From Plasmodiophora brassicae (Eukaryota): a DNA stretch of 56,640 nt. The notes beneath the pieces were generated by a model, which saw only the letters and a program-made list of their open reading frames with translations, did not search any database and had not been told where the DNA came from. The position numbers and the translations under genes are program-made. Location: the NCBI GenBank assembly GCA_036867785.1, contig CP145409.1, forward strand, positions 2,046,001-2,102,640. The letters run 5' to 3'. Shown piece by piece: positions 7,981 through 56,640 of the stretch; positions within the stretch are counted from its first letter, which is position 1; each line of letters begins with the position of its first letter.

Positions 7981-8424
7981 CACCGACGTACCTACTATCG
8001 CTGCCGGACGGACGCGGCAACGCTTAAGATTGGGAATGAACCGCCCAGGTCGGGCATGGCCAAACGCGGCGCGCCGGCTGCAATCCAGGGCCTCGAGCGC
8101 TGTTTAACGTCGGGTGACCGGCGATTGATCCGCCCGACGCCAACCGGATTAGTCCCACCAGCGAACCATATCGGCCGGGAGCGGCGTCCAGGCTCGCCCC
8201 ATCGCATCTTACAGCTGCCAGCGCAAGGCCCTGTGGCGTTAGAAGCCGCCGTCGGCTCGAAGGCATGGCCGATGAAACCCAGATGGGACGGCCGTGCCTG
8301 GCGCTCCCGATCACCAGATCACGGGGACGCTGCCGCAAGGAGGCGGCGCGATTTCGACGATGCTACCTGGCCAGATCGACGATTGCACATCGTGCGGGTT
8401 TCCCGGCGGTCATCGACGTCGATA

Positions 8425-28428: not shown

Positions 28429-28839
28429 GCCTGTGATCTCGGCGGGTATCAGAGGCTTCAGTTTCATCAGACACTGGAAGTCGACAATTATGGTTACAGG
28501 TTCTTCATTTTGAATTAAAACATTCCTTATATGCCTGATATCTCTGCGACTTGCGGCTATAGATTCGGTCGGGTAAATTAGAAACACTCCAGGCTGGAAC
28601 GTGTCAGACGCTGATAGGAACGAGAACGCAAATTAAATTTTCAGGCTTCAGGTGCAGGCACATATGGAAGCGCCCGTACACAGGTATACCGGCACGGTCC
28701 TGCCTGTGGTTCACAGGGATAATCGACCGCAGACTGTCAGAATTGGCACTCCGCAGATGCAGATCAGCTTAAAGATTTTAGATATTATCGAAGGGCCGTT
28801 GATATTAAAGAGTACGATCAAGGACTTCCTATCGAGAAG

Positions 28840-40105: not shown

Positions 40106-42108
40106 GCACTCGATAAACTGTGAAGTTTGCACCGCCAGCGTTGCTCTGTGCTGAATTAGCGGCTACCGATCGAATATGTATATTCGGCCACAGCGTGAAG
40201 CATACCCGATGGGCGATTGCCGACGGTAGGGCACCAGACCAGGCTTTGGACATCGCGGCCAGCAGGAAAGAGAAGGTAACCCCGGTACAGAGCGCTAGTA
40301 GAACACCTTCAATGCAGTCCGCGCCTGCCGCTGTGTGGGATTCATACGACGCCGAAAAGCGGCCTCGCCGTCGTCGACTGCAACGTTGTACGCTGGGACC
40401 CGACGTACTATCGCGTTCGGCACCGCACGAAGAACGTCTGCATGTACGCCAGCTGGCCCGTAGACGTCTACCCACCGACACCGTCGCCGGCAAGCGATTC
40501 ACTGTCCGACCCATGACGACCGGCTATAGCGTGTTTCTGGACGCCCGGCAACGACATTGAGTGCTACCTGTCCATGTCTGCAAGCTCGTTGCCGCTTTTA
40601 AGGGGCGTCCAGCTGCACGTGGCGGTCGCGTACTGGCTGTGTCCCCGCCCGACAGCCGACCAGGTGGTGGGCCCCGTCTCTCGATCGACGCGTAGCAACC
40701 AGCGACGACCGTCAAAGCCTGCAGCACTTGCGTCCGACCTGTTGACCCGTTTCTTGCATCGGGACACATTCAGGGTAGCATTGAATGGTTCGGCACGACA
40801 TCGAGCATTACGTTCGGCCCGTTCGGTATGGGCATCAACGTCCTCTGAAGCTACTGCAACCAGCTGTCCGATGCTTCTCGGGCCGGTTGGCGTTCGCACC
40901 GGCCGCAACGACCCGCGATGACGACCAGGAGCTGCCGGTGCACCTGATGCAGCTGCGTGGATTGCCCCCGGACCACGTGGCGACGCCTCCCGACCGACAC
41001 CTTCGCTCGACGACGTACGCATTGAAGAGCGCGGCGCCATACGCGCATTCAAGGCCCGTGATCGAAACGGACGTCGTCCGAGCCGATTGCAACCACCGGC
41101 GCCGAGATCATGGGGTTGACAACATTGGCGTGTAGGAGACCCCACTATTAGAACAGCGTGGTGGCATCTGCAGGGCGTTTCGCCGCCACTGGTTAGTCAG
41201 CTGTGCCTCTCTCACATGGCCGCTGTGTCGTCGCCGGACGAGGTCCCCCAAGGCAGTACCGATGATTCCTGCTGTGTGACGGCTTCCTGGATCGCGATTC
41301 GCAAACCCTGCACGCGCGGGAGCGAAGCTTCTGACAATGATGTCCAGAGGATCGCTACGATTGTCGGGCGGTGCTCGATCTTTCTTGCTATGATAATGAC
41401 CTTGGCTCAGAGTGTGTATCGCGAGCAAATCGGTTCGTCAGCTGCGGACTCGCTGGGACTGACCTTCGCTGTAGCAAACTGACCACATGGCGTGTCGTCG
41501 TGGCACAGAGCTGTGGGCACTTGCCAGCTTGACAGTTTCGTTTGCTCTGCGCCACACAGCCATCGTTAGGATACGTGTCTGCCAACATTGCCGTGAGCAG
41601 TGAACCTTGCTCTCGTGCGATTTCGACTGACACAGGTCGCTAATTGTGTCTCTCGACAATTCATCGCGGTCGCTCTCCGAGCTCGACATAGAGCGAGCGT
41701 CTGCAGCGGCGTGTTGGGAGCGCAGTGATCAGTACAGTCATTCGTGCCCAACCATTCAGTCAGCGACGAACGACTCGCCTGCGTTTGCCAGACGCGCGGC
41801 TCTGCTGTGTGGCGGAGCGGCGACTCATCCGCGTGCGACGAGCAGGTCCATTGCCGTCGGCAGACGCGTCATCGTCAATGTCCTCGCTCAGTTGGTCGGC
41901 CTTTGGGTTGCCCCGTCGCTGGTGGATAGCGGCGACGTACGCGCCCACCATATCGTCGACGACGCCGCGAAACCTCGACGACGTTCCCTCTGTCATCGGC
42001 CTTGGTCGCGAGTCCAGGATGACCAGCTCGAACGCGTTTACGAAATATGCATGTGCGCGCCTCGAGCTCACGCCGATCTCGACGAGCATGCGCCCCACAG
42101 CACCAGAG

Positions 42109-42212
42109 CGTGCTTATAAAGACGCCAATCGATTGGTGCAGCGCCGCGCACATCTTCGACATACTGCAGATGTGCGGCGCTGCACCAATCGACTGGCGTC
42201 CTTATAAGCACG
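42109..42212. repeat. Short inverted repeat / hairpin (45-47-bp arms, 12-nt loop)
   Basis: CGTGCTTATAAAGACGCCAATCGATTGGTGCAGCGCCGCGCACATCT pairs with AGATGTGCGGCGCTGCACCAATCGACTGGCGTCCTTATAAGCACG, with 2 mismatches and a 2-nt bulge. Confidence 0.9.
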
Positions 42213-42877
42213 TCGACGACGAGGACATGCTCAGCGGGGTGAGAACGGCGTCGTTTCGACCGGCACCGACCCCTAGTCAGCACGCCGGGGCCCAGCGCGA
42301 GTGCATGATAGACGCGGAGAATCAGAATTTTTTCCGCCGTCGGCCAAGTCGACTGGTGGACGGGAGAAGGCCACCTGTCCTTGACGCCCTTGACAGCGGC
42401 GTGCACCTGCGTCGACAGCGTCTTGTGGCCCTTTGACAATTTCACGATGGAATCGACCGCCGCTAACTGGACTAGCAGGCCGTTGTGCGGGTCGGCCAGG
42501 AACGAGCCCCAGTCGATCTTGGTGCAGGCGTCCCGCGCGTCCGGCGACGAGTGTATGACGCCCTGTATGAGAGCCAGCGCCTCACACAGCCGGTGACGCT
42601 TCTTGCTGCCCTGATTGGCCGACGGCAAGGGTACGTCCTGCCAACTCGCGTATGCCTCCAGCAGCATGATCGACCGTGATACCAGCGGCAACGCGCTCAG
42701 AGTCATCGGGTCAGACGACGCTGGCAGACGCAGCACCGCCGATGGATCGTGCAGTGGCGGGACAATCATGACGACATGCGTCAATACGGCCGGAAAACGC
42801 GACGACGACGCCCAGCGTCCATCGGGGCGAGCACTCATCGGCTGCGCTGGTCGGGGCGCGTCATCCATCCGTTCTTC

Positions 42878-44600
42878 GGAAGACGAAAAGCAGGCGGTGA
42901 AACTGGTGAGGGACGCGATGCGGAAGCGTATCCGATTCTGTCGCCAGGTGGTCGCCGATCGCGTTCCTGTCGTGCACGGCGTTGAGTACGTCGCTAACCT
43001 GACCATGCGTCAGGCGTGCTTCAACAGCATGTGGCAGGAGGCGATGGGTTCAACGACGATGCCACGTTCCTGCTGCTGGAGGCGGAAGCGGTGTGGGCAC
43101 ATCTCCGGCGGAAACTAGAGCAGTATGTCGTGTTCCCCCGCAAGATGTACCGCGCGATGTTTCGCCGGCTGGAGCGCGGTCGCCGGTCTCATTTCGTGTC
43201 CAACATCGATCGGCGGTCGCTGAACGCGCTGCTGTAACAGGCAGCTTTGACGGGTGGCTCTTTCATGGTTGTGAAGCAGCACCAAAGACACGGGAGGCTC
43301 AGCGGTCGCGGATGGCTAGCAGATACTACCAGTCACTGGGTCGTGAGAGCGTGGCGCCCGGTGTGTTTATAGTACAAGCCGTAGTCGAGGGTTTGACGTC
43401 GATGTGGAGTCTGAATAGGCTGCACGTGCCCACAAGCAATCCCCGCGACGCGTGACCAGCACACTGCAGATCTTCGAAGACTGTGTTAATGCGGGTTTTG
43501 ACGGGTCGTCGATCAACCCACGTCGGTTCTACCACCGGGCCACGCCGGACAGCAATGTCGGGCCGTGGCTCGTGACTTCGTCTCTGCAGTTTGGCCGATT
43601 TTTCGTCGTCGACACGTACATGGATCCGCTAGCCCTGGTCATCAACAGGGGCGACTTCATGAACTTTATTCAGAGCCTCGACTACGTCGATATGATGGCG
43701 ACAGTCCTGCGGATCTCCGTCAAAGGAAACCGGCACGCGCTACTACCTGGTCCAGTCGTGGTTCCTGGTCATCTCATCAGGGCTGAGCCCAATGCTGGCA
43801 CCGGACGCCATTGCTCTGAACCTTCTGATCGTACGTATACGCACCTTCAGTCTGCAGAAGGTTCAGAGCAATATATGGTGTCCGGTGTCAGCATTGAGCT
43901 CAGCCCTGATGAGATGACCAGGAACCCGACTGGACCAGGTAGTGGAGCGCATGCCGGTTTCCTCTGACGGAGATCCGCAGGACTGTCGACATCATGTCGA
44001 CGTAGTCGAGGCTCTGAATGAAATTCATAAACTCGCCCTTGTTGATGACCAGGGCAAGCGGATCCATGTACGTGTCGTCGACGAAGAAGCGGCCAAACTG
44101 CAGAGACGAAGACACGTAGTCGAGAGGCGACCCGTTCGAAGCCACGGCCCGACATTGCTGTCCGGCGTGGCCCGGTGGTAGAACCGACCTGGGTTGATGG
44201 ACGAGCCGTCAAAAACCGCATTGAAACAGTCTTCGAAGATCTGAAGCGCGTTCAGCGACCGCCGATCGATGTTGGACACGAAAGGAGACCGGCGACCGCG
44301 CTCCAGCCGGCGAAACATCGCGCGGTACATCTTGCGAGGGAACACGACATACTGCTCTAGTTTCCGCCGGAGATGTGCCCAGACGGCTTCCGCGTCCAGC
44401 AGCAGGAACGTGGCATCGTCGTTGAACCCATCGGCCTCCTGCCACATGCTGTTGAAGCACGCATGGCGCATGGTCAGGTTAGCGACGTACTCAACGCCGT
44501 CACGACAGGAACGCGATCGGCGACCATCTGGCGACAGAATCGGATACGCTTCCGCATCGCGTCCCCCACCGGATTCAACGCCCGCTTTACGTCGTCTTCC
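42878..44600. repeat. Large inverted duplication (palindrome) of a decayed gene segment, 27-nt central spacer
   Basis: Left arm ~42878..43827, right arm 43855..~44600. Both encode nearly the same peptides on opposite strands (DAMRKRIRFCRQ..; HLRRKLEQYVVFPRKMYRAMFRRLERG; FMNFIQSLDYVDMM). Confidence 0.92.
43233..43463 (-). mobile_element. Solo LTR (231 bp) of an LTR retrotransposon
   Basis: Present only in the left palindrome arm. Ends are TGTAACA...AGCACA (TG..CA), flanked by a CTGC direct repeat at 43229-43232 and 43464-43467. TATAAA on the minus strand at 43366-43371 sets the tentative orientation. Confidence 0.8.
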
Positions 44601-45275
44601 TTCTTGACCGGGCCGTACTTCCTAAGCGCGGCGGGCAACCCAGCGAACGACTTCCGGACCTTGCCCTTCTCGAACGTAGCGCGGACGGCCGCGTTCAGGG
44701 TACCGATGTGGGCAAAGCGGACGGGGTCCACCAGAACGCGCCCACGATCCCGCGTGCGCTGCGACACGGTCGCGTTGTAGCACGAGCGCGCGGATGCCAT
44801 AACGGAACTGCAACGTGACTTGCATCCACCGAACCCGGCGACCTCCCCGACCGGATAGTACGAGCTCTTGCGTGGCGCGATGCCACAGCCGACGTCCAGA
44901 TTTCGCAGCGCTGAGTAGTCGCGGCAGACGGCAACGGCTGTGTTGTCGGGGAAGGGTTCGGCCGACACGTTGGACCCGATGTCGAAGCGCGCGCATTCCA
45001 TTAACGTTGACGGCCAGAACGTTCGCAAGTAGCGGCGCGCGCACCTCGAGAACGTCGGCGACACACGTCATTTTCATCAACGAGCGCACACCTAGCGCTT
45101 GCATCAGCACCATGATGGAGCCGTCAAGCTCATCCTCAAGAGCCTCCAGGACAGCGCGGGCGGACGAAGGTGGCATAACCACGGGGCGGCGGTGGGCCCC
45201 AAACTGGTTACAAGGTGTTGTTAGCGCGTTTGAGCCACCGTTAGCTAGAAACAAAGGTACCGTTGGAAAGGGCAT
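43860..45275 (-). pseudogene. Frameshifted gene of unknown family (source of the palindrome)
   Basis: Overlapping minus-strand ORFs 44622..45275, 44474..45064, 44025..44471 and 43900..44145 read as one protein across small indels. Comparison with the left-arm copy confirms some of the indels. Confidence 0.6.
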
Positions 45276-45779
45276 TAGAACTCAGAGGCAGGACGCCTGT
45301 CCGGTGTGCCAAAAGTGCCACCGTTCGTCTGCAATTGCGAAGAATGTGGGGCAATTTGGGCACTTTGCTGATTTCACCAAGTCGAAGCTGAACTCCGTGG
45401 GGGTGCGCAAAATGCCGCGCGTGGTCGGCGTGGACTCGTTTTGCGCGACCGGTGCACCATGGACGGCATCGCCAGCTGGCGTCTCGTGGTCAGGCAGACG
45501 CGCGCTCGGATGATCATCCATGAGTAGACCGCGCGTTCCACGACTTCCTCCTGTCCTGTTGGGGTCAGGACGTGATGCACAGGCGGTAACCGCACATGCT
45601 CCGGCGGCGACCTCGATGTCTGAGACGCTGTGCCGCATATGATCCAGGCCTTCGTCCGCTGAACTGCCCCTGTCATCAACGAGTTCCGCGCTCTGTCCAT
45701 GGTTCGAACACCCACATCTCTGGGGTCTGGCTGCACCACGTCGATGCCGCTGTGGGTGCATCTCGGCGCGATCGACTAC

Positions 45780-48700
45780 CCGATGTCGCTGCAAGTCGCG
45801 AAAGCCGCCCTCTGCGACGTCCTGCATGGCCGCCCGACATGCCGTTGTGTTCGGCATCACACGGCGCAGGTCGCTCCTGACGATGCGCCTGCCTGCACCC
45901 GCGCCGACTCCCAACAGACCCGCTACCGCCTCAACACGTCCTGCTGGACGCTTGACGTCGCGCGCGTCATCGAACTCAATAGCCGCATGCAGCACGTCCT
46001 GCTGTTGGGGTATCGTCGCGTCCAGCGCGTCTGCGAGAACGCCCTGCACCTCGAGGACAGGTACGAATTGTCGCCTCAGGCACAGACCCCAGGCCCTCTA
46101 ACTCGTGCTGGACAGGACACGCCTGGCGTCACCTGCTGTCTCCCGTCCAGCATGAGCCGCTGATGGACAGTGGTCGTCCTGCCGGGCCGGGCCGGGTCCA
46201 GCACCGCGCCGGCCTGCTCCTCAGCTAAGGCAGCGTTTAGACCGCCCGCCGCAGCTCGCTGTGTTCTGTCTGGCGCGCCCTTGACCTACATCATGCATCG
46301 ATGGACGAGAACAACCAAGGGCGCCTCTGCTGTCCCGTCCGCCTGACGAGCGTCGCTTTCCTGTCGTGCAAATCGTCCAGCAGGCCAGCGGTGTCCAGCG
46401 CCATTTGCCGCCGGTCGATATGCGGGCGCGTGCCTGCCGTGGGAGACCCTCCGCCATCCCGGCCGTCACATCTTCACAAAGTCAAACCGTTCAATTCAGG
46501 CAGACGAGGTCTCTGCAGGTTGTCCTGGCGTCAACCGGCGCCGAGCGGCAGCGTTCGAAGAAACCGGTGGGGGGGGGGGGGGGGGGGGGGGCGCCCGTTC
46601 CCGTTCCCGGGCGTGGGCTCCGTCGTCTTCTGCCACCTGCGTGTCGATCATGACAAATGGCCGATCAGCTCAATCCATCGACGTCAGCAGGTCTGTCAGG
46701 GCCGCGGGCAGGTACAGCAGTACCTGGCACCCGATTCTCAGCAAACGGTGTCGTGTCCGGCATATATCCACAACCAGAACAGTTCAGAACAACTAGACCA
46801 GTTCGATTCGCGCGGATAGCGCCCTGCAGGCCACGCTGGCGTCCCGTTGCGCGGAACAGCGGTCCTCGCTGCACTGGGTGCAAAGCGACGGCGCACATCA
46901 CCGATGACGTGCGCCGACATCGCCGCTACATGCGTGTCGATGACTGCCAGTCAGACCAGACGAACCAGACAGGCATGTCCGGCATCAATACACGAATGCA
47001 GGACAGTTGATCGCGTCCGTGTCCCAGCAATGCTTCGCGTTCAGCGCCTGCCGCTGTGCGTAAGTACGCGCCAGGTCCACTTCGATGTCGACCTGGTGTC
47101 GCGGGCATGGCATAGCAATGCGAATCTGGGCGATGTGCCGTCGTATGGCTTCTATCTGCATTACGTTGTGGCCAGATTTACAGTTCGGGTACCAGGTCTG
47201 AGCACAGCCATCGATCGCCTGCAGGTGGGCGCCAGACGTCCAGATGCGTCCACGTGGGCAGCACGGCGCCGACTCCGTGGGCGGGCGACGTCGACGCGAC
47301 CGACCACCCGACGCCGCCGCCGATCGCCTCGCCGCTCGCCGCCCACTGCAACGTCCTACAAGGCCGCCCGATATCCAGTTGTGCTCGGTACTGCGTGGGG
47401 CAGGTCGTCGACGCCCTGGCACCTAAGCCTGCCCTCTCAGCATCCGCGCCGCCATCCCCGCCTAGCGACGCCATGGGCCAACGGACCCAGTGCACCACTA
47501 CACCTCCCGCTGGACGCTTGCCGACACGTACGACGCGTCTGGGCGGAGCATGTGCATCTCCAGGACAGGTATGGGGTGTTCCTTGATGCACAGCCGCGCG
47601 GATTCACTGACATTGTTGGCAGGACCGACCTGCAATCGACCGTTCAGCACGAGCACCTGCAGGGCACTAATCGTCGTTCCTAGAGGGGCGGAGACAACCC
47701 CAGGCTAGCCTTCTCGAGGACTGGGGCGGCGTCCTGACTGCCCGCCGATCGTTGCATTTGGTCCGACGCGCCCGTGCTCTGCACCATGCATCGACGGGAC
47801 GGCCAACCAAGGGCGTCGCCAGGCTTCCCGTATGCCAGCGAGCAGCGTGTTCCTGTCCTGCAGGTCGTCCAGCAGGGCAGTTTCGCCCGTTACTACTGCC
47901 CGACATGGAAACGTCTGCCACCGTCGACGACCTGCCACCATCCCTGCCGACATCTGCCTGAACCAGAACCGTTCGAATTACAAGCAGACCAGGTCGACAC
48001 ACGCGTACGTCTTGCCCGCAGGTTGTCCTGGCGTTAGCCAGCACCGCGCGACAGCATTCGATGAAACTGGGAGAGGGAGCAGTGCCCGTCGCCGACATCG
48101 GCGCCGCATGTGTGTGAACCATAGTAGATCAGGGAAGACGAGCAACCCCAGTCAGGTTTGTGCCTCGTCAAACGCACGTGGCACAACGCTGGTAGCCAAT
48201 TCGCCGCGACGACTCTCCGACCACCGACACGGGTCATCGCACCCACTTCGAACGCAACACATATAGGTATCGTCCTGGACATCTGCCGTCGCGTTCCCGG
48301 TGCCACTATGACCGCAGCACGCCCTGATGGATGCTTGCCGTCGCGTTAAGCTCGTCTGGGAGGACATCCTTCACCTCCAGGAGAAGAATCTTTGTTCGCC
48401 TGAAGCACGGAGCTTCATGTTCAAAGGGCACTCGTGCCGTCCTCCGCCGTCTCAAGTCGACAAACAGTCCCCGCAAGGAAGCCGTCACCCTGCCTAGGCT
48501 GGACGGAGCCAGCATCACTTCTGTGGCGGCGTCCTGGCCCCCTGTCGACCTTGGCAATCGAGGGCGTGCGCCAGTGCCCTGCACCGTGCGCCGATGGGCA
48601 GGCACACCATCCAAGGGCGTCGCTGAGCTCCAAGTCTGCTTCCATACAGAGCGCCAGTCTGTCGAGCGTATCATACATCAGGCCCGTCGTTCCCAGCGGC

Positions 48701-50200
48701 AGTTGTTCGCCCTCGACATGCGCACGCCGCCCTGCCACCGACGACGTCCCGACACCATCCCTGCCGGCATATTGCCACAACCAGAACCGTTCAATACAAT
48801 CCAATGAGGTCGAAGTCGCGCGCAGCACCGGCACTCAACGGCAGGAGATCGCTGACATCCGTGCAGGACGCATCACCCTTTGCAGATCGAGGACACCAGC
48901 CTCGCGCCTACCTGCGTGTCAACCTCCGGTCAGACCAGCTGAGCAGTGCAGTCATACCAGGCATCGCAGCACACATGTGGTACAGTTGATCGTGGCAGAT
49001 TCCCAGCAACGCCTCGCATCCAGTGACCCAGTTTGCAGACGTTCTCGCCAGGCCGTAGGCCAGGTCGTAGTCGACTGGTTGTGCGGAACGACATCGATCG
49101 CGAACGAGTCGCTTGCGATTGTGCCGATGTGTGCGATATATATACATTGTGTCGAGTCCATACATGAGCCTGATACGGGGACTGTATTCAACCATCGCAT
49201 GACGGCGGACGCCGGTCAAGAACCTGAAGGAGGCGCCGGCTCCGTTGTGCGCCGTCGGCGCGACCGATCACAAGTCATCGCTGCGGGTCGCGAACGCCGG
49301 CCACTGCATTGTCGTGCACGGCCGACCGACATGCCGTTGTGGTTCGGCGTCGCAAATCGCCTATCATCCACGTCCAGACGCGCCTGCCCGCGCCCGCGCC
49401 GACCAGCGACGCGGGACGACGCACCCACTACAAGAACAACACGTCCTGCAGGAAAGCCTATCGACGCGCCCGAGTCGTCTGGGAGAAGGTCCTGCACCGC
49501 CGTGACAGGTGCAATTCGTCGTCTGACGCACAGAGCCAGGCCCCCCTCTAACCCGTGCTTGACAGGACGCGCCTCCTTCTGTCTGCGGCCCCACATGCAG
49601 CGCCAGCAAACGATCTGTATCTCCAAGAGAAGAACGTGTCGTTGCATTTCGCACTTGCGCCCAGGCACAACATGCTTTGGATACATATGACCTCAACATC
49701 TCCCGCCTTTCCACCATGAACGCGAGCAGGGCAGCAGTCCTCCCTGCCGACATATATAGACTGCTAATGGAAGCGTCGTGCTGACCTGATCCGCAGCTGA
49801 GCGGCGCCCTGCAGGCCCGCCCTCGGATGACAGCAATCGCTCGCGCGCGCCGCTCCAAGCACTGAGAGGGCAGACCCACCAAGCACACGTGGCCGTCGCC
49901 TCGACATGTGGGGATGCCTGCCTCGCGTCGATGAACCGCCGCCCTCCTTGCTGAAATATCGCAGCAATCCGAAGCGCCCAGTGCAAGAATATTAGGTCGA
50001 CACGCGCGTCCGCCGACTCAGCATGACGTCGTCCTGCCGTCTGCCGAAGACGGCGCTGGGTGCGGCGCCCGTCGCAGGACGTACATCGGTGTCGCGATCG
50101 GCAGACCAGCCAAGGGTGTTGCCGACCTCGCCAACAGCATAGAATGCGTCTCTTCCCTGTCCTGCAGGTCGTCCTGCAGAACAGCGACGTCTAGCGCCGC
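45780..50200 (+). pseudogene. Array of decayed paralogous gene modules (subtelomeric repeat family)
   Basis: Motif CxVxxGRPxxxC at ~45813, ~47347 and ~49305. RVW/C(E)xxLHLxDR-like motif at ~46030, ~47535, ~48345 and ~49475. AACCAGAAC(C/A)GTTC at ~46772, ~47961 and ~48779. TCCTGCAGGTCGTCC at ~47856 and ~50160. Confidence 0.6.
46569..46591 (+). repeat. Poly-G tract (G23)
   Basis: Uninterrupted run of 23 G. Confidence 0.9.
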
Positions 50201-50336
50201 CTGCTGTGGACGACCCCAGCGACATAGTCTGCCGACACCGATGTACGTCCTGCGACGGGCGCCGCACCCAGCGCCGTCTTCGGCAGACGGCAGGACGACG
50301 TCATGCTGAGTCGGCGGACGCGCGTGTCGATCTAAT
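49991..50336. repeat. Inverted repeat with 104-bp arms (1 mismatch) and 138-nt spacer; fold-back/MITE-like
   Basis: 49991..50094 is the reverse complement of 50233..50336 except at one position. Confidence 0.92.
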
Positions 50337-50567
50337 GCAGCAGCTGGCCTATACTCGTGCACACCAGCCCCGCAAGTCGCCCTGGCCGCAGCCCGCTCGC
50401 AGCGGCAGCAATCGCTGGAGTCGACAAAGGGCGAGGAGCCAGTCGTCGTTCCGGGCCACCGGGTTTGCAGCTCCGTCTGCGATACGACCACGCCAGACCC
50501 TGACCAGACGAGAAAAACGGAATGTCGTGCATTGGAGCACGCAAGTAGGACCGAATGCCACGCCTGG

Positions 50568-50654
50568 TTTATGCAACTTGACGGCATTGACACACCGCGC
50601 AGCGCGTTGCTTGATCAAGCAACGCGCTGTGTCAACGCCGTCAATTTGCATAAA
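50568..50654. repeat. Palindrome with a perfect, spacer-less 30-bp core
   Basis: Core CAGCGCGTTGCTTGATCAAGCAACGCGCTG at 50600..50629. Outer arms TTTATGCAACTTGACGGCATTGACA / TGTCAACGCCGTCAATTTGCATAAA have 2 mismatches and a one-sided bulge. Confidence 0.9.
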
Positions 50655-50719
50655 TGCACCCCGCTGTCAGGGCTGATCCGACCTTGGTGCCCGGTCCGAA
50701 ATCGGTTGGAAGGGCCGCA

Positions 50720-51180
50720 TGTGCAAGTCGCCAAATCTGCGAGTGGTTGTCATTGCCAGCGCCCCAGCAGGGAACATGTTCGGCGCTACAACGAGCCCAC
50801 GGCCCCGAAGTTCGATGCTGTCGTTCCCGATGCAGACAATGTCGACGGGCGCGCTTGACAAGGGACGCAACTTGGTGCTATGTACATGTACGTGGTGGTG
50901 GACTGCGCTTCGTTAAGGAGACACACCCGCTGTACAACGCCCTTTCCTATCTGATTATGGTTTGGCACGGTCGCGAAGGCTAGCCTATCACATTCAAGCA
51001 AGACACGGGCGTCACGTTGAAGGCGCACACGCAGTACCTCTCCAGCAACGCGACATTGGCGACAACGTCCTCATTAATTCGGTGTGGTAAGCTGTTTCCA
51101 CAGTCGTGGTGCATCAGTATCTTCGCATCGAGCGGCAGAACCTGCTGTAAGTTCGTCAGAACCAGGACACCAAGCTACGA
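50720..51180 (+). mobile_element. Degenerate Helitron Rep/helicase fragment (region N-terminal to the Rep motifs)
   Basis: Across frameshifts it reads EHVRRYNEPTAP..RNLVL..RGGGLRFVKETHPLYNALSYLIMVWHGREG*..VTLKAHTQY..LIRCGKLFPQ..VVHQYLRIERQNLL*VRQNQ. This follows the order of the Helitron consensus as recalled: RRYNxPT..RDIV..GGLxRIxExHPxYDxLxYPLLFxxGExGW..GRLFQQ..VDxYxxIExxRLxxIRxNQ. Confidence 0.75.
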
Positions 51181-51751
51181 CGTGGTTCTTCGCTGTGCTG
51201 GTCGCCGCACGATAGGCCAGCAACCCTGCAACAGTACTTACCCCTGACCTTCCAATATACATCTCCTTTCCGATGAAGTTAAATCCTCACTCGCCGTTCA
51301 TCCTCTCTTTCGACGCCACAAGCACTCTCCCGCCCCTCGGCACCAGCATATTCGTGCGGCAGACGATAACGGATCGATCGGGCGACGCATCATCCTTCGG
51401 TCAACGTGCCGTCGTCGGGGGCGACGACCCAAATGCGGCGTGAAGGTTGGCTGGCGCCGGCGCCGTACGCCACCAACAGACGATAATGCTGGCGTACCAG
51501 ACCTCCGCCGACATGCCCATCTTCGCATGCGGGCGGAAAGGCCTTCTCGGTGGAGTAAGTTCACTGTATGTATTGTCGACAATCGTGCCATGCTCAGGCA
51601 GTCGCCTTCTCGCGCCAACAACATCTGGCAGAGCCCCATCTGTGGTCGGCCGACGGGCCATCATCGTCATCGACCAACAACCTGCATGTCCGGCCTTGGC
51701 GACCGATACCGACATGCGCTTGGCCATGATGGCGACCTGAGGTGCCTGAGT

Positions 51752-51805
51752 GGTGGCCTCGGAGCGCCGGTGGCCTCGGAGCGCCAGACTGGTGGCCTCG
51801 GAGCG
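51752..51805 (+). repeat. Three direct copies of GGTGGCCTCGGAGCG(CC) upstream of the kinase gene
   Basis: Copies start at 51752, 51769 and 51791. The array ends 83 bp before ATG 51889. Confidence 0.85.
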
Positions 51806-51888
51806 ACGCTCACAGTCACAAGTCACAACCTTCTCTGGCCAGGTCTGTCCACACGGACTTTCATTCCAGTTTGACGTGGGCGGCCATC

Positions 51889-53032
51889 ATGTCGCAGTCT
51901 CTGGAGGAGCTCTTCAGGCAGGCGCACGTCGACGCCGCGGCCGCGAACAGGGCCGTCAGGGAGGCGCGGGACGCCAACCTCGATGACCCGCGCCTGCCCG
52001 ACATGGAGCGCGACGCCGACCGCGCCGGTGCTGCCCGCGACGCTGCCCTGGCCGCCCTCCAGGCCGTTCGCCCGGTCGGTACGTAGACCGGCTACACGCC
52101 ATTTCCGCCCGTTTTGCTAAATCCAGTGTATAGACGAGAGCATTCGCGATCGCCTGCGACGGCTCAACGTCCGGGTCACAACCAGAGACCTTAATTTCTT
52201 AATTGACAAGGACGTTGCCGCATATGGCGAGCTGCGCCATGCGAATCGGAACGAGGCCGAGCGAATCCTAACCAAGGCGCGGTCTCAATTCATCACGACG
52301 GACCGTTTCTACATTGGCGAAACGCACGGGTTCATTTTGGACGGCGTGCTCCCAGTCGCTGGCCAAGCGAAGTCTTGGTTGTTCTATGCGTACGGAACCG
52401 GCGATGGCGTCGTGCGGGTCGCAAAGCGGTATTCCGTGGCGGCTCAGGAAGACTATGAGCGTGAGGTCAAGGCAGCCGAGACGATCGGGCAGCATGCAAG
52501 CATCGTGCAGGTTGAGGCATCGTTTTGCCACAACGGCTTCGGCTATATCATTATGCCGTTTTTTCCACGAAGTGCATCGGATCTCCTGTCGGTGTGCAAA
52601 CCTCCAGCCACTGTTCCACGCTCTATAACCCGCTCCATTGGCGAAGCTGTCGCCAATGCGCTTCTGTTTATGCACGAGAAGAACATTTGCCACTGTGATG
52701 TGAAACCAGCCAACATCATGCTCACCGACCATCGTGAAATGCTTCCGGTTCTTGTTGACCTCGGATCCGCCGTTCGCAGTGGCGATGCCTTGGTCGAACA
52801 GACCGTGTCATTCGCCCTGGACTTCCAGACGCCACATGCCGTGCCGGGGCTCGATTGGACGTGCTTGGGAAGCACTATCTGCATGTTACTCGGCCTGGAG
52901 ATTCAAGACGCCACCCGGCGTTCCATGGTCGATATGCTCCGCTTCATTAAGGACCCGGCCGCTGATCTGGCCATCAAATGTTTGGAGAACAACGTTGCCC
53001 GCCTGCGTCAAAATGTCGCGCCGCCGCCCTGA
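51889..53032 (+). CDS. Atypical non-RD protein kinase with helical N-terminal header; 2 exons
   Basis: Intron 52079..52133 (GTACGT..GCTAA..TAG) joins the exons in frame. Motifs VRVAK, YEREV, YIIMPF, HCDVKPANIML and VLVDLGSA. Confidence 0.85.
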
Positions 53033-53051
53033 ACAAAACGGCTGTCCCTGA

Positions 53052-53104
53052 AGCCGTCGCCGCCGTGCAACGCAGTGTTATTGCGTTGCACGGCGGCGAC
53101 GGCT
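53052..53104. repeat. Perfect 23-bp GC-rich stem-loop (7-nt loop)
   Basis: AGCCGTCGCCGCCGTGCAACGCA-GTGTTAT-TGCGTTGCACGGCGGCGACGGCT, starting 20 bp after the kinase stop. Confidence 0.95.
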
Positions 53105-53342
53105 GAGTTACGGGTGTCAACAGGCTGTCCGATACCTTTAGGGACTTCTGTAATGTATTATGAATACATGGCTAATGCGTCTGAGGGGAAATTGTTTCTC
53201 TTCCCGCGGGATGACACCCCCGATTGATCCCGCGGGACGAAAAATGCCATTCGTCCCGCGAGCTGCTGCTTTACTGCGGGTGCCCGCGTTCGCTGTCCGT
53301 GAGTCCGTGACCCAGCGCTGCGCATTTCTGAGCTGTGTGTGG

Positions 53343-56047
53343 ATGGCGAGCATTGATCTGGTTGAGATTGAGATGGCGAGCGTTGACGAGGCCGCCCAAG
53401 CGTTTCCGGATCTACCGGAGATTGAGATTGGCGATGATGACGGCGACACCGGTCAAGATTCTGTCTGTGGCGTCCCTGCTCCGGGGATGGAGTTTGAAAC
53501 CCAACTCGAACTGAAGAATTTCATCGAAGGGTTCGCCAAGAGGACTGGGTGCCGTGTAAGTCTATCCAACCGTGAATTGAAGTACCATTATTTTGACATT
53601 TTTCACAGGTCATCATAAAGTTCAAAACGTTCGCCAAGGCATCTCGCTCTGTAGAGTTGTTCGGACACGAAGGAGCCTGGGCGCGTGGTTCGTTATTTCG
53701 TTCCTTCACTGCGTTGTTGGTTCCTACTCATAAGCCATCGTCAGGTGATGGATACTGCAACTTTAAGACCGAGTCGGAGAAAGCTGATCGGTCAGTGAAG
53801 TCGTCGTGTTCGTTGAACATTCCGTTCACGTACGATGTTGGACGACGGCAATACGTCATTAAGGGGGACAGATTCTGTCTGTCCCACAACCACCTTGTGA
53901 TGATCCCATCTCCAACGACAGTAATTGTCAATGACCAACGGGATTTGACTCCTGACCAGTTGTCGTACATAATTAACCTGGGCAAGTATTCCCTTCCGTT
54001 TCCAATGGTAAATGGGGATTACGAGCTCCTTTCCGTGTATAACTATGTTACAGGTCACACGCATGCTGTCCGATCAATTTCCAGACTGCAGAATTCAGAA
54101 GCCATTATTGCACCGTCTTCTGCGGAAGGGGAAACTGCAGGCGTTCGGCGGCGATCGTGATGCTATGAACGCCCTTATCAACCTGGGACGAAGCTACGAA
54201 GAACACGGAGGTTTCTTTGAAATCGACATCGATGTCGATTGTCGATTGGAAAAAATCTGGCTAGCGCGCGCTGAAGGGCTTCAGTTCGCGTCTGTGTACA
54301 ACGACGTTGTACAAATCGACGGCGGCGCGAAGATGAACGCGTACGGCTTTGTGTTCCTTCCGGTCACCGTTATCGATTGCCTTGGTACGTTTGTCGTGCT
54401 GTGATCAATATCTTTGCGTGACCGCAATGGGTAATAGGCAAGTCGTATGTGGTTGGCGCGATGGCTGGGCCCTCCGCTGAAAACAAAGCGGACGTCGTGA
54501 AGACGCTAGAATACTTTAGGGTGAAACGAAGCGAGTCTGTTCTGATCGCCGACGATGCTCTAGCATTTCGGGCAGCTGCCGTGGAATGCGATATGGTGTA
54601 CCACCAATGCACCAAGCATTATCAGGCGAAGATAGCTCGCGCCTGTGCAGGTAATTAGTTTCTGCGACTCTCGTACTGCCGTTATCGAATTCTTAGACAA
54701 CATCATTATAGGGCTTGGCCACGAGGGGAAGGAGTTCATGATCAAGGCGAACACGCTAGTTTATCACATATTTCCGTCCGAAGACGCGTTCTTCGCGAAG
54801 GCGGACGAGTATCGCCTCATGTTTCTACAGTACGGTGGAGCCGTGAAACTCTTCGACGACATTGTTGACAAGAGACAACAACTTTGTCGTACATTCACCA
54901 GTTGTAAGTTTACCGGATCACACTCGTCAAACCAGCGGGCAGAAGGCACGATCAGCCGTACCAAACGCGATGTGCAGCCGTGGCTCTCACGCGCGAACTT
55001 ATTCGAGATGTTTACGCATCTGGAAATGATACAGAAACAACAGGAGGACGAGGCGGCAAGACTATTGTCTAACCTTATTCGCAAGGGCAAGCATTGGAGC
55101 GACTACGTTGACAGCATTTTTCGAGAGAGACAGCTCAATTCGCGCCTTCTCAGTTCAGTTAGGGAGGTGGATACAGGTGAGAGTCTATACTGCATTCAGT
55201 TTGGGGTTTACCTACAGTGACATCTGTTTAGGGGAGTACGAAGTGGGAACCTCTGACCAGCCGGATCGACACCACGTAATGCTCGGCGATGTATCCCTTG
55301 GCAACATTCCATCTTGCACGTGCCCCGAGTTCAGGTTAGGTACAGTCTTTGCGTTGTGCTTCATATCTTCCTGATTATTCTCGTAGGTCTACACTAATTC
55401 CGTGTAGCGGCATTTGTGCTGTCTTCAATCGCACGCAAGATGATATCTTCAGTTTGCAGTACGTCCACCGCCGATGGTGGCTTCGCCTTCATCCACAATA
55501 CGAGGCAGTGAGGCGGAACCTTCGCGTCCCTGACGCGCCGGCAGCCGGTGGAGATCATGCAATGCTTCCAGAACGTGACGCTTCGTGCGACAGTATCGTG
55601 GTTGATGAACCAGCAGTGTCAGTTCGTGCATCCCAGGACGATATTTATCACCGAGTCGTCTACCCGTCGAAACAGGAGGTTCGGTATCGAAAACTCACCG
55701 AGGCATTTGGGCGTTTGGTTCATGATGCCCGATCCAACGAGCACTTGTATCGGCGCTTGATGTCCACGTTTGCCTCCTTGCAAACCGAGTTTCAGTCGCA
55801 TCTTGCTGGCGCTCGACACGCAGCGGATCCTCAAGAAGCTCACGTTGCCGTTCGTCCTCCGTTGCGGCAGGGGGCAATGCGTGGCCGACTGCCTGATCGT
55901 GTTCAACGCACGTCTCGACTTGACGCCCGTTCTGCAACGGACAGGCAGGCCGCCAAGTGTCATGCGTGTCTGCGAAATGGCGTCACCGCAACAGATCATC
56001 GTTCAGGGCGCAAATGTCCGTTTTACGATAGTCGTCAGCAAGGTTAG
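53343..56047 (+). mobile_element. Mutator/MULE (FAR1-like) DDE transposase gene with about 7 short introns, SWIM-like finger and C-terminal Zn knuckle
   Basis: PGMEFET..FAKRTG and C..C..HNH DNA-binding domain. Catalytic YNDVVQIDG, LIADD, CTKH (CxxH) and SNQRAEG. SWIM-like SCTCPEF..IPCSGIC and C-terminal CHAC..H..C. Introns at 53556..53608, ~53688, ~54008, ~54386, ~54651, ~55177 and ~55335. Confidence 0.88.
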
Positions 56048-56323
56048 CTTACTTCGTGGTTAACGTTCCCCCTGCCTGTTGACGCGACCTGAATACAGAT
56101 CACGGAGCGGAGGAGGATGTGTCCAACAACGATGGTGCATTGGCTGAAACCGAAAGTTCGCCACGCGGAGATCACGTTCTTCATCGCCAGCACGACCATG
56201 GTTAGTACATCGTTGATGGGCTGTTTACACATGTCTGATCAGTCACCCGGCCGCTAGAGTCTGTGTTTTCTGTCATCTGGTACGCTACACAAATAATGAG
56301 GTACCAGCTGCTGCGTCGTAACT

Positions 56324-56640
56324 GGGTTTTAGGGTTTTATAGGGGTTTTTTTAGGGTTTAGGGTTTTAGGGTTTTAGGGCTTAGGGTTTTTAGGGTTTTT
56401 TTTAGGGTTTAGGGTTTTAGGGTTTTTAGGGTTTTTAGGGCTTAGGGGCTTTAGGGTTTTAGGGTTTTAGGGTTTTAGGGTTTTAGGGTTTTAGGGTTTT
56501 AGGGTTTTAGGGTTTTAGGGTTTTAGGGTTTTAGGGTTTTAGGGTTTTAGGGTTTTAGGGTTTTAGGGTTTTAGGGTTTTAGGGTTTTAGGGTTTTAGGG
56601 TTTTAGGGTTTTAGGGTTTTAGGGTTTTAGGGTTTTAGGG
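56324..56640 (+). repeat. Telomere (TTTTAGGG)n with degenerate proximal zone
   Basis: 23 perfect TTTTAGGG units at 56457..56640. Variant units (T3-T8 AGGG, CTTAGGG, CTTTAGGG) at 56324..56456. The G-rich strand runs to the window end. Confidence 0.98.

What the first reader, a model, noticed from the sequence alone, without database searches (positions are those of the whole stretch)
42109..53104. Five unrelated fold-back structures within 11 kb of subtelomere
Seen: inverted repeats with arms of ~46 bp (42109), ~720-750 bp (42878), 104 bp (49991), ~40 bp (50568) and 23 bp (53052). They share no obvious sequence, and I noticed none comparable in the 40-kb gene-rich arm. Inference: either a record of repeated fold-back or template-switch repair at a chromosome end, or a hairpin-RNA/small-RNA producing domain that could silence subtelomeric families or supply small RNAs during infection.
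Basis: partly seen in the sequence, partly recalled or inferred. Interest (0 to 1): 0.75.

Follow-up and report, generated by a model that had tools for sequence, protein, structure and literature searches.

The report
Small-RNA hairpin cluster near a telomere
The five fold-back sequences near this chromosome end of the clubroot parasite are real, and four of them coincide with small-RNA-producing loci already listed in a 2026 paper, so this is mostly a known kind of feature.

Summary
All five inverted repeats are real. They are the only significant inverted self-matches in the window: 5 of 5 lie at 42.1-53.1 kb, none in the first 42 kb.

The window ends in a (TTTTAGGG)n telomere and matches Plasmodiophora brassicae.

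Four of the five are already-published small-RNA loci.
- The exact 21-mers of Pb-miR028, Pb-miR027 and Pb-miR026 (Zhang et al. 2026, PMC13547706, Table S8) sit in the stems of the 42-nt, ~40-nt and 23-nt hairpins. Their order and spacing match assembly PbJS.
- On that coordinate map, phasiRNA-like loci PHAS21-229 and PHAS21-230 fall on the two arms of the 0.72-kb repeat.
- The 104-nt repeat is in none of the tables read.

The big repeat is a truncated, flipped copy of the 3' part of a decayed gene, abutting that gene's own 3' end.

Best reading: these are hairpin small-RNA genes born by local inverted duplication. No convincing target-site duplications flank them.

Subtelomere enrichment in general is not supported: 20 of 435 published PHAS loci start within 60 kb of contig left ends, against 19.7 expected.

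Residual interest: long genomic hairpins as a dsRNA source in an organism reported to lack RdRP.

The parts
42109..42212 (-). Hairpin IR1: 42-nt arms, 20-nt spacer. Carries mature Pb-miR028 at 42187-42207 on the minus strand (5' arm of the minus-strand hairpin).
   Evidence: repeat. (DNA fold -51.5 kcal/mol, z -11.8). (exact 21-mer). (21 of 21 bases paired in the stem). (Table S8 row Pb-miR028, Ctg_2:867910-868039).
42878..43827 (.). Left arm of the large inverted duplication. It is a truncated, flipped copy of the 3' part of the decayed gene on the right. It carries a 235-nt insertion at 43229-43463.
   Evidence: alignment blocks. (both arms translate to the same protein with different frame breaks). 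(PHAS21-230, Ctg_2:866916-867250, maps to about 42890-43224).
43828..43854 (.). 27-nt central loop of the large repeat, bracketed by a perfect 18-bp stem (43810-43827 / 43855-43872).
   Evidence: stem 18, loop 27. (DNA fold of 43790-43892: -38.3 kcal/mol, z -11.0).
43855..44600 (.). Right arm of the large inverted duplication. It is the 3' part of a decayed minus-strand gene whose reading frame continues upstream beyond the repeat boundary.
   Evidence: (ORF 44477-45067 minus strand, GC3 0.80, coding-like, crosses the boundary). (PHAS21-229, Ctg_2:865587-866266, maps to about 43874-44553).
43900..44800 (-). Decayed gene ('gene Y'), about 300 codons with at least two frame breaks. It belongs to a near-orphan family. 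The ATG at 44800 is a possible start, read off the sequence only.
   Evidence: three-frame reading. (4 hits in 1.84 billion representatives: two short fragments at 82% and 68% identity, one 990-aa protein at 38%, one spurious repeat protein). (no Pfam family).
45763..50431 (.). Non-coding stretch of three to four degenerate direct repeats (65-80% identical). Successive copies of one segment start 1528 and 1964 nt apart. IR3 sits in the last unit.
   Evidence: direct-repeat families. (no frame-specific GC bias in any ORF between about 46.2 and 51.7 kb)..
49991..50336 (.). Hairpin IR3: 104-nt arms, 99% complementary, 138-nt spacer. Not listed among the published miRNA, PHAS or hc-siRNA loci that I read.
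   Evidence: (RNA fold -306.6 kcal/mol, z -27.6). (no Ctg_2 entry at about 859810-860155).
50568..50654 (-). Hairpin IR4: imperfect 87-nt palindrome. Carries mature Pb-miR027 at 50574-50594 on the minus strand (3' arm).
   Evidence: -38.7 kcal/mol, z -8.2. (exact 21-mer). (20 of 21 paired). (Pb-miR027a, Ctg_2:859488-859582).
51730..53032 (+). Kinase-like gene. Its stop codon lies 20 nt before hairpin IR5, on the same strand as Pb-miR026.
   Evidence: Pkinase PF00069, E 1.5e-14, on ORF 52121-53029. (both ORFs coding-like)..
53052..53104 (+). Hairpin IR5: perfect 23-bp stem, 7-nt loop. Carries mature Pb-miR026 at 53086-53106 on the plus strand (3' arm). The last nucleotides run past the perfect stem.
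   Evidence: (-36.6 kcal/mol, z -11.1). (exact 21-mer). (20 of 21 paired). (Pb-miR026a, Ctg_2:856959-857361).
53343..56200 (+). Terminal multi-exon gene of a P. brassicae SWIM-type-domain family (context only). No terminal inverted repeats bracket it.
   Evidence: sequence. (exon 54636-55217: 58% identity to a 1084-aa P. brassicae protein that UniRef names 'SWIM-type domain-containing'). (no Pfam hit)..
56324..56640 (+). Telomere array, 8-nt unit (TRF consensus GGGTTTTA, a rotation of TTTTAGGG), 39.4 copies, with variant units at its inner edge.
   Evidence: (the same unit reported for P. brassicae).

Best explanation
The five fold-backs are a local cluster of hairpin small-RNA genes in a Plasmodiophora brassicae chromosome end.

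How it works:
- Transcripts that run through an inverted repeat fold on themselves.
- The parasite's single Drosha-like RNase III (PbDRL) cuts the stem into 21-nt duplexes.
- These are loaded on PbAGO1 or PbAGO2.

The three short hairpins each give one dominant 21-mer: Pb-miR028, Pb-miR027 and Pb-miR026. The 0.72-kb hairpin gives phased 21-nt siRNAs from both arms.

The repeats arose by local inverted duplication (fold-back or template switch), not by transposon insertion.
- The large one is a flipped, truncated copy of the 3' part of a decayed gene, placed tail-to-tail against that gene around a short palindromic centre.
- The 104-nt one is a recent inverted patch inside a degenerate local direct-repeat array.

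Shown:
- The repeats exist and fold.
- The exact mature sequences are present in the stems.
- Published sRNA loci coincide with 4 of the 5.

Shown by the paper for the organism in general, not for these loci:
- The AGO proteins mediate silencing.

Inferred:
- The dsRNA is intramolecular.
- The origin mechanism.
- Any target or biological role.
For: 1. Exact matches. Each of the three 21-mers hits once with 0 mismatches, and chance expectation is 0.00 in 100 shuffles each. The only other hit for each is the partner arm, with 2 mismatches.

2. Each mature sequence lies wholly in the stem on its own strand, with 20-21 of 21 bases paired.

3. Collinearity with PbJS Ctg_2 in reverse orientation. 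IR4 to IR1 centre distance is 8,450.5 nt in the window and 8,439.5 nt between the precursor midpoints in Table S8. The precursor lengths of 95 and 130 nt fit IR4 (87 nt) and IR1 (104 nt).

4. With p + w = 910,135 to 910,146, PHAS21-229 maps to about 43,874-44,553 (right arm is 43,875-44,596). PHAS21-230 maps to about 42,890-43,224 (left-arm block 42,879-43,230, which ends at the 235-nt insertion).

5. Within the PbJS interval that corresponds to the whole window (about 853.5-910.1 kb), the tables list 3 miRNA and 2 PHAS loci. All 5 fall on inverted repeats. One hc-siRNA-like locus would map near 2.2-2.8 kb, not on a repeat.

6. The paper reports 21-nt phased sRNAs with 2-nt offsets, two AGOs, no Dicer, and a Drosha-like enzyme that cuts long dsRNA. 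[quoted passage not shown]

7. Origin.
- Both arms translate to the same protein with independent frame breaks, and only the right copy continues upstream as a coding-like ORF.
- The centre is an 18-bp stem with a 27-nt loop.
- IR3's left arm continues the native order of its repeat unit, and the spacer holds repeat sequence in native orientation.
- No convincing target-site duplications.
Against: 1. IR3 is the longest near-perfect stem, yet it is in none of the miRNA, PHAS or hc-siRNA tables I read. The 78,890 siRNAs are not listed singly.

2. The PHAS assignment rests on coordinate arithmetic from three anchors. The tables give no sequence for PHAS loci. The inner left-arm block 43,464-43,811 has no listed locus.

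3. None of miR026, miR027 or miR028 was validated experimentally. The paper validated miR002, miR041 and miR045. ShortStack was run with permissive settings.

4. All three start with U, whereas the paper says most Pb sRNAs start with C.

5. miR026 has 636 target rows for three copies. That suggests unspecific GC-rich matches.

6. sRNA production does not show function.

7. In PbJS the region lies about 853-868 kb inside Ctg_2, so its subtelomeric status depends on the assembly.

8. A 5-nt direct repeat (TTCTT) flanks the large repeat within 1 nt of its ends. I expect about 0.17 such matches by chance among the 169 boundary combinations tried.
Confidence: 0.8

Rival explanations
1. The repeats are neutral scars of fold-back or template-switch repair in an unstable chromosome end. 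Small RNAs from them are incidental by-products with no targets and no selected role.
For: - Both copies of the gene in the large repeat are broken.
- IR3 and IR4 lie in non-coding degenerate repeats.
- IR3 gives no listed sRNA locus.
- None of the three miRNAs was validated, and miR026 has an implausibly long target list.
Against: - The miR026 and miR027 hairpins are kept with identical mature 21-mers at 3 and 4 PbJS loci.
- The listed precursor length is 95 nt at all four miR027 loci, and 79 nt at two of the three miR026 loci.
- The mature sequences sit in well-paired stems.
- This rival shares the origin step with the best explanation and differs only on function.
Confidence: 0.3
2. The hairpins are terminal inverted repeats of small non-autonomous DNA transposons (MITEs or foldback elements), and the small RNAs come from those.
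For: - miR026 and miR027 are multi-copy: 3 and 4 loci on four other contigs.
- Table S5 lists 600 'Mutator' elements.
- A SWIM-type gene lies next to the telomere.
- TTCTT flanks the large repeat.
Against: - No flanking direct repeat longer than 5 nt at any of the 5 structures, even with +/-6 nt slack at each boundary.
- IR4 and IR5 keep their spacing on Ctg_15 (2,427 nt against 2,467 nt here). That points to a segmental copy, not separate insertions.
- The right arm of the large repeat is continuous with a coding-like ORF that crosses the boundary.
- No inverted repeats bracket the SWIM gene.
- The five share no sequence.
Confidence: 0.07
3. Some of the palindromes are long-read assembly artefacts (chimeric fold-back reads) at a contig end.
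For: - IR3 arms are 99% identical and the structures lie near a contig end.
- Raw reads could not be inspected.
Against: - The arms of the large repeat differ at 5.5% of positions and by several indels.
- An independent assembly (PbJS) keeps the IR4-IR1 distance to within 11 nt over 8.45 kb. That leaves no room for a missing 104-nt or 720-nt arm.
- Published sRNA loci sit on both arms.
Confidence: 0.03
4. The short hairpins are transcript 3'-end or termination signals of the neighbouring genes rather than small-RNA genes. IR5, for example, lies 20 nt after the kinase stop codon.
For: - IR5 begins 20 nt after the stop of the kinase-like ORF, on the same strand.
- IR1 lies between two co-oriented minus-strand ORFs.
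Against: - Exact published mature 21-mers come from these stems.
- No such hairpin follows any other coding-like ORF: 0 perfect stems of 12 bp or more lie in 1-42000.
- The two roles are not exclusive. Cutting the hairpin would also cut the host mRNA.
Confidence: 0.1

Closest known systems
Annotated P. brassicae miRNA and phasiRNA-like loci (Zhang et al., Adv Sci 2026, PMC13547706, Tables S6 and S8)
   Same: Identical mature sequences (Pb-miR026, 027, 028), the same order and spacing, and PHAS21-229/230 on the arms of the large repeat.
   Different: In what I read (abstract, sections 2.1, 2.2 and 4.5, passages, Tables S1-S8 in part), the paper does not describe several things.
- The inverted-repeat anatomy of these loci.
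- Their clustering next to a telomere.
- Their origin from a duplicated gene.
It contains no word starting with 'subtelomer' (its two 'telomer' matches concern the assembly) and no 'inverted repeat'. IR3 is not listed.
Young plant MIRNA genes formed by inverted duplication of a target gene (Allen et al. 2004 model; recalled, not read here)
   Same: A hairpin whose arms are a flipped partial copy of a protein-coding gene. It sits next to or near the parent and gives 21-nt small RNAs along the stem.
   Different: - Here the parent copy itself forms one arm and is already broken.
- Processing is by a Drosha-like enzyme, not a Dicer-like one.
- Trans targets are unknown.
Hairpin-RNA (hpRNA) endo-siRNA loci of Drosophila and pseudogene inverted-repeat endo-siRNAs of mouse oocytes (recalled, not read here)
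   Same: A long genomic inverted repeat, transcribed as one RNA, gives siRNAs without an RNA-dependent RNA polymerase.
   Different: A different eukaryotic supergroup, a different nuclease and phased 21-mers. Single-transcript origin is not shown here.
Large palindromes primed by a short inverted repeat next to a break (Tetrahymena rDNA, yeast and mammalian amplification models; recalled, not read here)
   Same: Two long arms meet at a short asymmetric centre that is itself a small inverted repeat (18-bp stem, 27-nt loop).
   Different: - Only about 0.72 kb was copied.
- The chromosome continues normally on both sides.
- There is no sign of amplification or loss of distal sequence.
MITE-derived miRNA hairpins
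   Same: Short, near-perfect hairpins present in several genomic copies.
   Different: No target-site duplications. The IR4-IR5 spacing is conserved between copies. The hairpins share no terminal sequence.

Membership tests
Published Pb-miR026 / 027 / 028 loci (PMC13547706, Table S8) | The exact mature 21-nt sequence is present. | tested here: met
   Each has one 0-mismatch hit, at 53086-53106 (+), 50574-50594 (-) and 42187-42207 (-). Chance expectation is 0.00.
Published Pb-miR026 / 027 / 028 loci (PMC13547706, Table S8) | The mature sequence lies in the stem of a hairpin on its own strand. | tested here: met
   20, 20 and 21 of 21 bases paired. MFE is -58.5, -64.2 and -89.3 kcal/mol.
Published Pb-miR026 / 027 / 028 loci (PMC13547706, Table S8) | The same order and spacing as in PbJS Ctg_2. 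| tested here: met
   IR4-IR1 is 8,450.5 nt here and 8,439.5 nt in PbJS. The IR5 precursor is listed as 403 nt, so its midpoint is 92 nt off.
Published Pb-miR026 / 027 / 028 loci (PMC13547706, Table S8) | Small-RNA reads with precise processing at this locus. | not testable with these tools
   This is the paper's ShortStack call. No reads were available to me.
phasiRNA-like loci PHAS21-229 / 230 (Table S6) | The locus coordinates coincide with the two arms. | tested here: met
   by arithmetic from the three anchors. The fit is within about 6-45 nt of the arm boundaries. There is no sequence to compare.
phasiRNA-like loci PHAS21-229 / 230 (Table S6) | 21-nt phasing of reads. | not testable with these tools
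   This is the paper's sRNAminer call (phasing score at least 10, p at most 0.001).
Hairpin-RNA genes born by inverted duplication of a gene | The arms are copies of protein-coding sequence, one of them truncated. | tested here: met
Hairpin-RNA genes born by inverted duplication of a gene | One transcript spans both arms. | not testable with these tools
   No RNA-seq at hand.
Hairpin-RNA genes born by inverted duplication of a gene | The small RNAs act on the parent gene family in trans. | not tested
   Only two fragmentary relatives (82% and 68% identity) were seen. No target data.
MITE / TIR DNA transposon | Target-site duplication directly flanking the inverted repeats. | tested here: not met
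   The longest flanking direct repeats are 3-5 nt with +/-6 nt slack. Only TTCTT at the large repeat sits within 1 nt of both ends.
MITE / TIR DNA transposon | Many dispersed copies with unrelated flanks. | tested here: inconclusive
   Searches give 3 and 4 copies. The IR4-IR5 spacing is kept on Ctg_15, which suggests a segmental copy. Flanks could not be read.
Short-inverted-repeat-primed palindromic duplication | Long arms meet at a short centre that is itself a small inverted repeat. | tested here: met
   18-bp stem and 27-nt loop at 43810-43872.
Any curated Rfam family | A covariance-model match at the gathering score. | tested here: not met
   0 matches in the whole window, both strands.

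The most novel reading that the evidence does not exclude
The paper reports that P. brassicae lacks an RNA-dependent RNA polymerase. It states that the way siRNA precursors are generated 'remains unclear'.

The large repeat here gives a concrete answer for one locus pair: two adjacent PHAS loci are the two arms of one genomic inverted duplication.

Of the 435 published PHAS loci, 168 have a PHAS neighbour within 700 nt. That is 89 adjacent pairs with a median length ratio of 0.80. Random placement gives about 19, with a maximum of 41 in 500 simulations.

The boldest reading not excluded has two parts.
- Long genomic hairpins born by local inverted duplication are a main source of dsRNA for phased siRNAs in this parasite.
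- The IR4-kinase-IR5 block is one of a small family of duplicated small-RNA cassettes shared by several chromosomes, with miR026 and miR027 copies on Ctg_4, 10, 12 and 15.
Probability: 0.3. Interest if true: 0.6.

Novelty: already known. Interest (0 to 1): 0.35.

Why it matters
Four of the five structures are already in print as small-RNA loci, so the finding itself adds little.

What the window adds is the anatomy behind the table rows.
- A phased-siRNA locus pair turns out to be the two arms of an inverted duplicate of a decayed gene.
- Three 'miRNA' precursors are near-perfect short palindromes in the same 11 kb.

The source paper says this organism has no RdRP and that the origin of its siRNA precursors is unclear. 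A simple genome-wide intersection of inverted repeats with the published loci could settle part of that open point.

The clubroot agent is an important crop parasite in which RNAi is being explored for control. Knowing which loci feed its RNAi pathway is therefore of practical interest.

Tried and rejected
1. Family of the gene in the large repeat.
- Pfam found nothing on any arm ORF.
- The full HMMER scan of 1.84 billion representatives gave 4 hits. Two were short fragments. One was a 990-aa protein without a Pfam family. One was a spurious match to a low-complexity repeat protein.
- A search with the 990-aa protein found only itself, a JGI 'hypothetical protein'.
- The ESM Atlas gave no usable hit.

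Names and copy numbers of those fragments therefore stayed unknown.

3. The minus-strand ORF 42071-43009 next to IR1 had no homologue among proteins of 172-548 aa.
- Whether IR1 lies in an intron or a UTR stays open.
- GT-AG introns of 140-236 nt that would splice it out in frame exist on paper only.

4. Rfam at gathering scores gave 0 matches, and there are 0 tRNA genes.

5. Transposon reading: no target-site duplications and no inverted repeats around the terminal SWIM-type gene. Pfam gave no MULE or SWIM hit on its exons or on its 1084-aa relative. My first impression of a FAR1/MULE-like transposase rests on recall and on the UniRef name alone.

6. Pb-miR042, another multi-copy miRNA near contig ends, is not in the window at up to 3 mismatches.

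7. Contig lengths of PbJS were not found in the supplementary document. Whether the paralogous copies on Ctg_4 and Ctg_15 are near right-hand ends could therefore not be decided.

8. Which arm of IR3 is the original could only be argued weakly from 65-80% identical repeat units.

9. No eukaryotic DNA collection was at hand.
- Genome contigs holds bacteria and archaea only and was not used.
- Other genomic copies of the hairpins were therefore not read.

10. I did not compare all 234 published miRNA sequences with the window by script. I relied on the Ctg_2 coordinates, of which all rows (miR021-041) were read.

Full report
OBSERVATION. The repeat finder and a self-blastn of the whole window at E<1e-4 give the following.
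- 42109-42212: 42-nt arms, 93% complementary, 20-nt spacer.
- 42878-44600: the large repeat.
- 49991-50336: 104-nt arms, 99% complementary, 138-nt spacer.
- 50568-50654: an imperfect 87-nt palindrome.
- 53052-53104: 23 nt, perfect, 7-nt loop.

These are 5 of the 5 distinct inverted structures in the window, and none lies in 1-42000. Perfect stems of 12 bp or more with loops up to 60 nt number 0 in 1-42000 and 4 in 42001-56320. Folding energies lie 8 to 28 standard deviations below dinucleotide shuffles, and no shuffle folds as well. The five share no sequence.

CONTEXT.
- The window ends in 39.4 copies of an 8-nt unit, a rotation of TTTTAGGG. That unit is reported for Plasmodiophora brassicae, and also for Chlamydomonas and Theileria (passages of PMC6823432 and PMC11191646).
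- G+C is about 0.52-0.71 per 2 kb. Table S4 of PMC13547706 gives 59.4% for P. brassicae.
- The only homologue of the terminal gene's largest exon is a P. brassicae protein, at 58% identity.
- Together with the exact miRNA matches below, the organism is P. brassicae. I did not try to tell which isolate.

The last 15 kb reads as follows.
- Two co-oriented minus-strand ORFs around IR1.
- The large repeat, with a decayed minus-strand gene.
- About 5.5 kb without frame-specific G+C bias (about 46.2-51.7 kb). It is made of three to four degenerate direct repeats and holds IR3 and IR4.
- A kinase-like gene, Pkinase E 1.5e-14.
- IR5, 20 nt after its stop codon.
- A multi-exon SWIM-type gene.
- The telomere.

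ANATOMY OF THE LARGE REPEAT.
- A gapped alignment gives 721 aligned positions at 94.5% identity.
- Indels include a 235-nt insertion in the left arm (43229-43463), 23 extra nt in the right arm (44117-44139), and several of 1-4 nt.
- Both arms translate to the same protein, each with its own frame breaks.
- Only the right copy continues upstream beyond the repeat boundary, as a coding-like ORF (44477-45067, minus strand, GC3 0.80).
- The left arm is therefore a truncated, flipped copy of the gene's 3' part, laid tail-to-tail against the gene's own 3' end.
- The 63-nt spacer is itself a small palindrome, with an 18-bp stem and a 27-nt loop.
- The protein family is almost orphan. Four hits came from 1.84 billion representatives: two short fragments at 82% and 68% identity, one 990-aa protein at 38%, and one spurious hit.

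LINK TO PUBLISHED SMALL RNAs. A literature search led to Zhang et al., Adv Sci 2026 (PMC13547706). I read the abstract, sections 2.1, 2.2 and 4.5, passages, and supplementary Tables S1-S8 in parts 1-4, plus searched rows of S8 and S9. Table S8 lists three miRNAs on PbJS Ctg_2.

| miRNA | PbJS precursor | Exact match in window | Structure |
|---|---|---|---|
| Pb-miR026a | 856959-857361 | 53086-53106 (+) | IR5 |
| Pb-miR027a | 859488-859582 | 50574-50594 (-) | IR4 |
| Pb-miR028 | 867910-868039 | 42187-42207 (-) | IR1 |

- Each 21-mer occurs exactly once with no mismatch. The only other hit for each is the partner arm, with 2 mismatches.
- Each lies in the stem of its hairpin, with 20-21 of 21 bases paired.
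- Order and spacing agree in reverse orientation. IR4 to IR1 is 8,450.5 nt here and 8,439.5 nt in PbJS.
- With that map (p + w about 910,135-910,146), PHAS21-229 (865587-866266) falls on about 43,874-44,553, the right arm.
- PHAS21-230 (866916-867250) falls on about 42,890-43,224. That is the outer block of the left arm, up to the insertion.
- Within the PbJS interval that matches the whole window, the tables list 3 miRNA and 2 PHAS loci, and all 5 fall on inverted repeats.
- One hc-siRNA-like locus (Repeat28) would fall near 2.2-2.8 kb, far from the anchors and not on a repeat.
- IR3 has no entry.

MECHANISM. The paper reports the following for the organism.
- About 90% of sRNAs are 21 nt long, with phasing and a 2-nt offset between strands.
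- There are two slicer-type AGOs and no Dicer.
- A Drosha-like RNase III (PbDRL) is needed for sRNA biogenesis and cuts long dsRNA.
- There is no RdRP, and the origin of siRNA precursors is 'unclear'.

The best-supported reading is that transcripts through these repeats fold back and are diced into 21-mers. Each short hairpin gives one dominant species. The 0.72-kb stem gives phased siRNAs. The loci are shown to be annotated sRNA sources. That the dsRNA is intramolecular, and what the RNAs target, is inferred or unknown. miR026 lies on the kinase gene's strand just after its stop codon, so cutting the hairpin would also cut that mRNA. This too is inference.

ORIGIN.
- No structure has a convincing target-site duplication.
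- The five share no termini.
- No inverted repeats bracket the SWIM-type gene.
- The large repeat has the layout expected of fold-back copying primed at a short inverted repeat.
- IR3's left arm continues the native order of its repeat unit. The spacer carries repeat sequence in native orientation, and the right arm is the flipped patch. This last point rests on weak alignments.
- Arm identities run from 92% to 100%, which suggests events of different ages.

RIVALS.
- Neutral repair scars with incidental sRNAs cannot be excluded. This rival shares the origin step.
- The MITE reading fails the target-site-duplication test.
- The assembly-artefact reading is contradicted in two ways. The arms are 5.5% diverged. 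An independent assembly also keeps the distance across both long repeats to within 11 nt.

WIDER PICTURE FROM THE PUBLISHED TABLES.
- miR027 has four loci (Ctg_2, 4, 10, 15) and miR026 three (Ctg_2, 12, 15).
- On Ctg_15 the two lie 2,427 nt apart, against 2,467 nt here. The block is therefore duplicated.
- Chromosome ends in general are not enriched. Of 435 PHAS loci, 20 start within 60 kb of a contig's left end (19.7 expected) and 0 within 15 kb.
- By my eye count, 15 of the 214 miRNA rows read do so.
- Right-hand ends could not be scored because contig lengths were not found.
- In PbJS this region lies inside Ctg_2, near 853-868 kb. This may reflect scaffolding, since PbJS contigs reach 3.45 Mb against 2.1 Mb in other assemblies (Table S4).
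- 168 of the 435 PHAS loci have a PHAS neighbour within 700 nt. Random placement gives about 19, with a maximum of 41 in 500 simulations. This pattern is expected if many are repeat arms. It would equally arise if the caller splits single loci.

NOVELTY.
- Four of the five structures are already listed as sRNA loci, so the finding is already known in kind and largely in particulars.
- Full-text searches for 'Plasmodiophora' with 'subtelomeric' gave 6 papers, 5 listed. I checked passages of the one P. brassicae genome paper.
- A search for 'Plasmodiophora brassicae' with 'inverted repeat' and 'small RNA' gave 1 paper, seen as a listing only.
- Neither search found a description of inverted-repeat anatomy or of a chromosome-end cluster.
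- The source paper has no word starting with 'subtelomer' and no 'inverted repeat'.
- The open and testable residue is whether genomic hairpins are a general dsRNA source in this RdRP-less parasite.

LIMITS.
- No P. brassicae genome, reads or RNA data were at hand.
- The PHAS mapping is arithmetic, not alignment.

Noticed in passing
window 45763-50431: Three to four degenerate direct repeats (65-80% identical) with no coding-like frame bias fill the gap between the large repeat and the kinase-like gene. Successive copies of one segment start 1528 and 1964 nt apart. This looks like a decayed subtelomeric repeat array.
   Followed up: partly
window 43229-43463: A 235-nt insertion is present only in the left arm of the large repeat. 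It has no match elsewhere in the window. The published PHAS21-230 locus appears to stop at its edge.
   Followed up: partly
window 53195-53260: A palindromic CCCGCGGG-type motif occurs twice, plus once as CCCGCGAG. The copies form overlapping 11-18-nt stems between IR5 and the start of the terminal gene. Possibly a promoter element.
   Followed up: no
window 53343-56200: The last gene before the telomere has several short introns and a CxC...C motif. Its only homologue found is a 1084-aa P. brassicae protein that UniRef names 'SWIM-type domain-containing' (58% identity on one exon). Pfam finds nothing on either, and no terminal inverted repeats bracket it.
   Followed up: partly
window 26413-27383 and 28879-29855: A direct duplication of about 0.97 kb at 76% identity, 2.47 kb apart. 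It lies inside long plus-strand ORFs (26740-28425 and 28723-30786). Probably tandem paralogous genes.
   Followed up: no
window 7229-7508: A 102-nt period repeat (2.8 copies, 71% matches) lies inside the long coding-like minus-strand ORF 5971-8103 (GC3 0.90). Probably a protein repeat domain.
   Followed up: no
window 56324-56450: The inner edge of the telomere array carries variant units (TTTAGGG, CTTAGGG, TTTTTAGGG, TTTTTTTTAGGG) before the regular TTTTAGGG run.
   Followed up: no
PbJS coordinates in PMC13547706 Table S6 (not in the window): Four PHAS locus pairs have identical sizes and P-values: Ctg_2:19477-20102, Ctg_2:2954145-2954770, Ctg_14:881719-882344 and Ctg_17:625992-626617. They look like copies of one repeated small-RNA cassette. 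At least one lies 20 kb from a contig end. No counterpart is listed for this window's interval.
   Followed up: no
window as a whole against PbJS Ctg_2, about 853.5-910.1 kb: By the coordinate map, the window's telomere would fall about 853.5 kb inside PbJS Ctg_2. That contig is at least 2.95 Mb long, while other assemblies have a longest contig of about 2.1 Mb. Either PbJS scaffolding joined two chromosomes or the isolates differ.
   Followed up: no
window 42071-43009 and 41763-42113, minus strand: Two ORFs lie on the minus strand on either side of IR1, in different frames. The upstream ORF, read stop to stop, runs through the hairpin. GT-AG introns of 140-236 nt containing the hairpin would join them in frame. 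Pb-miR028 might therefore be intronic. No homologue was found to test this.
   Followed up: partly
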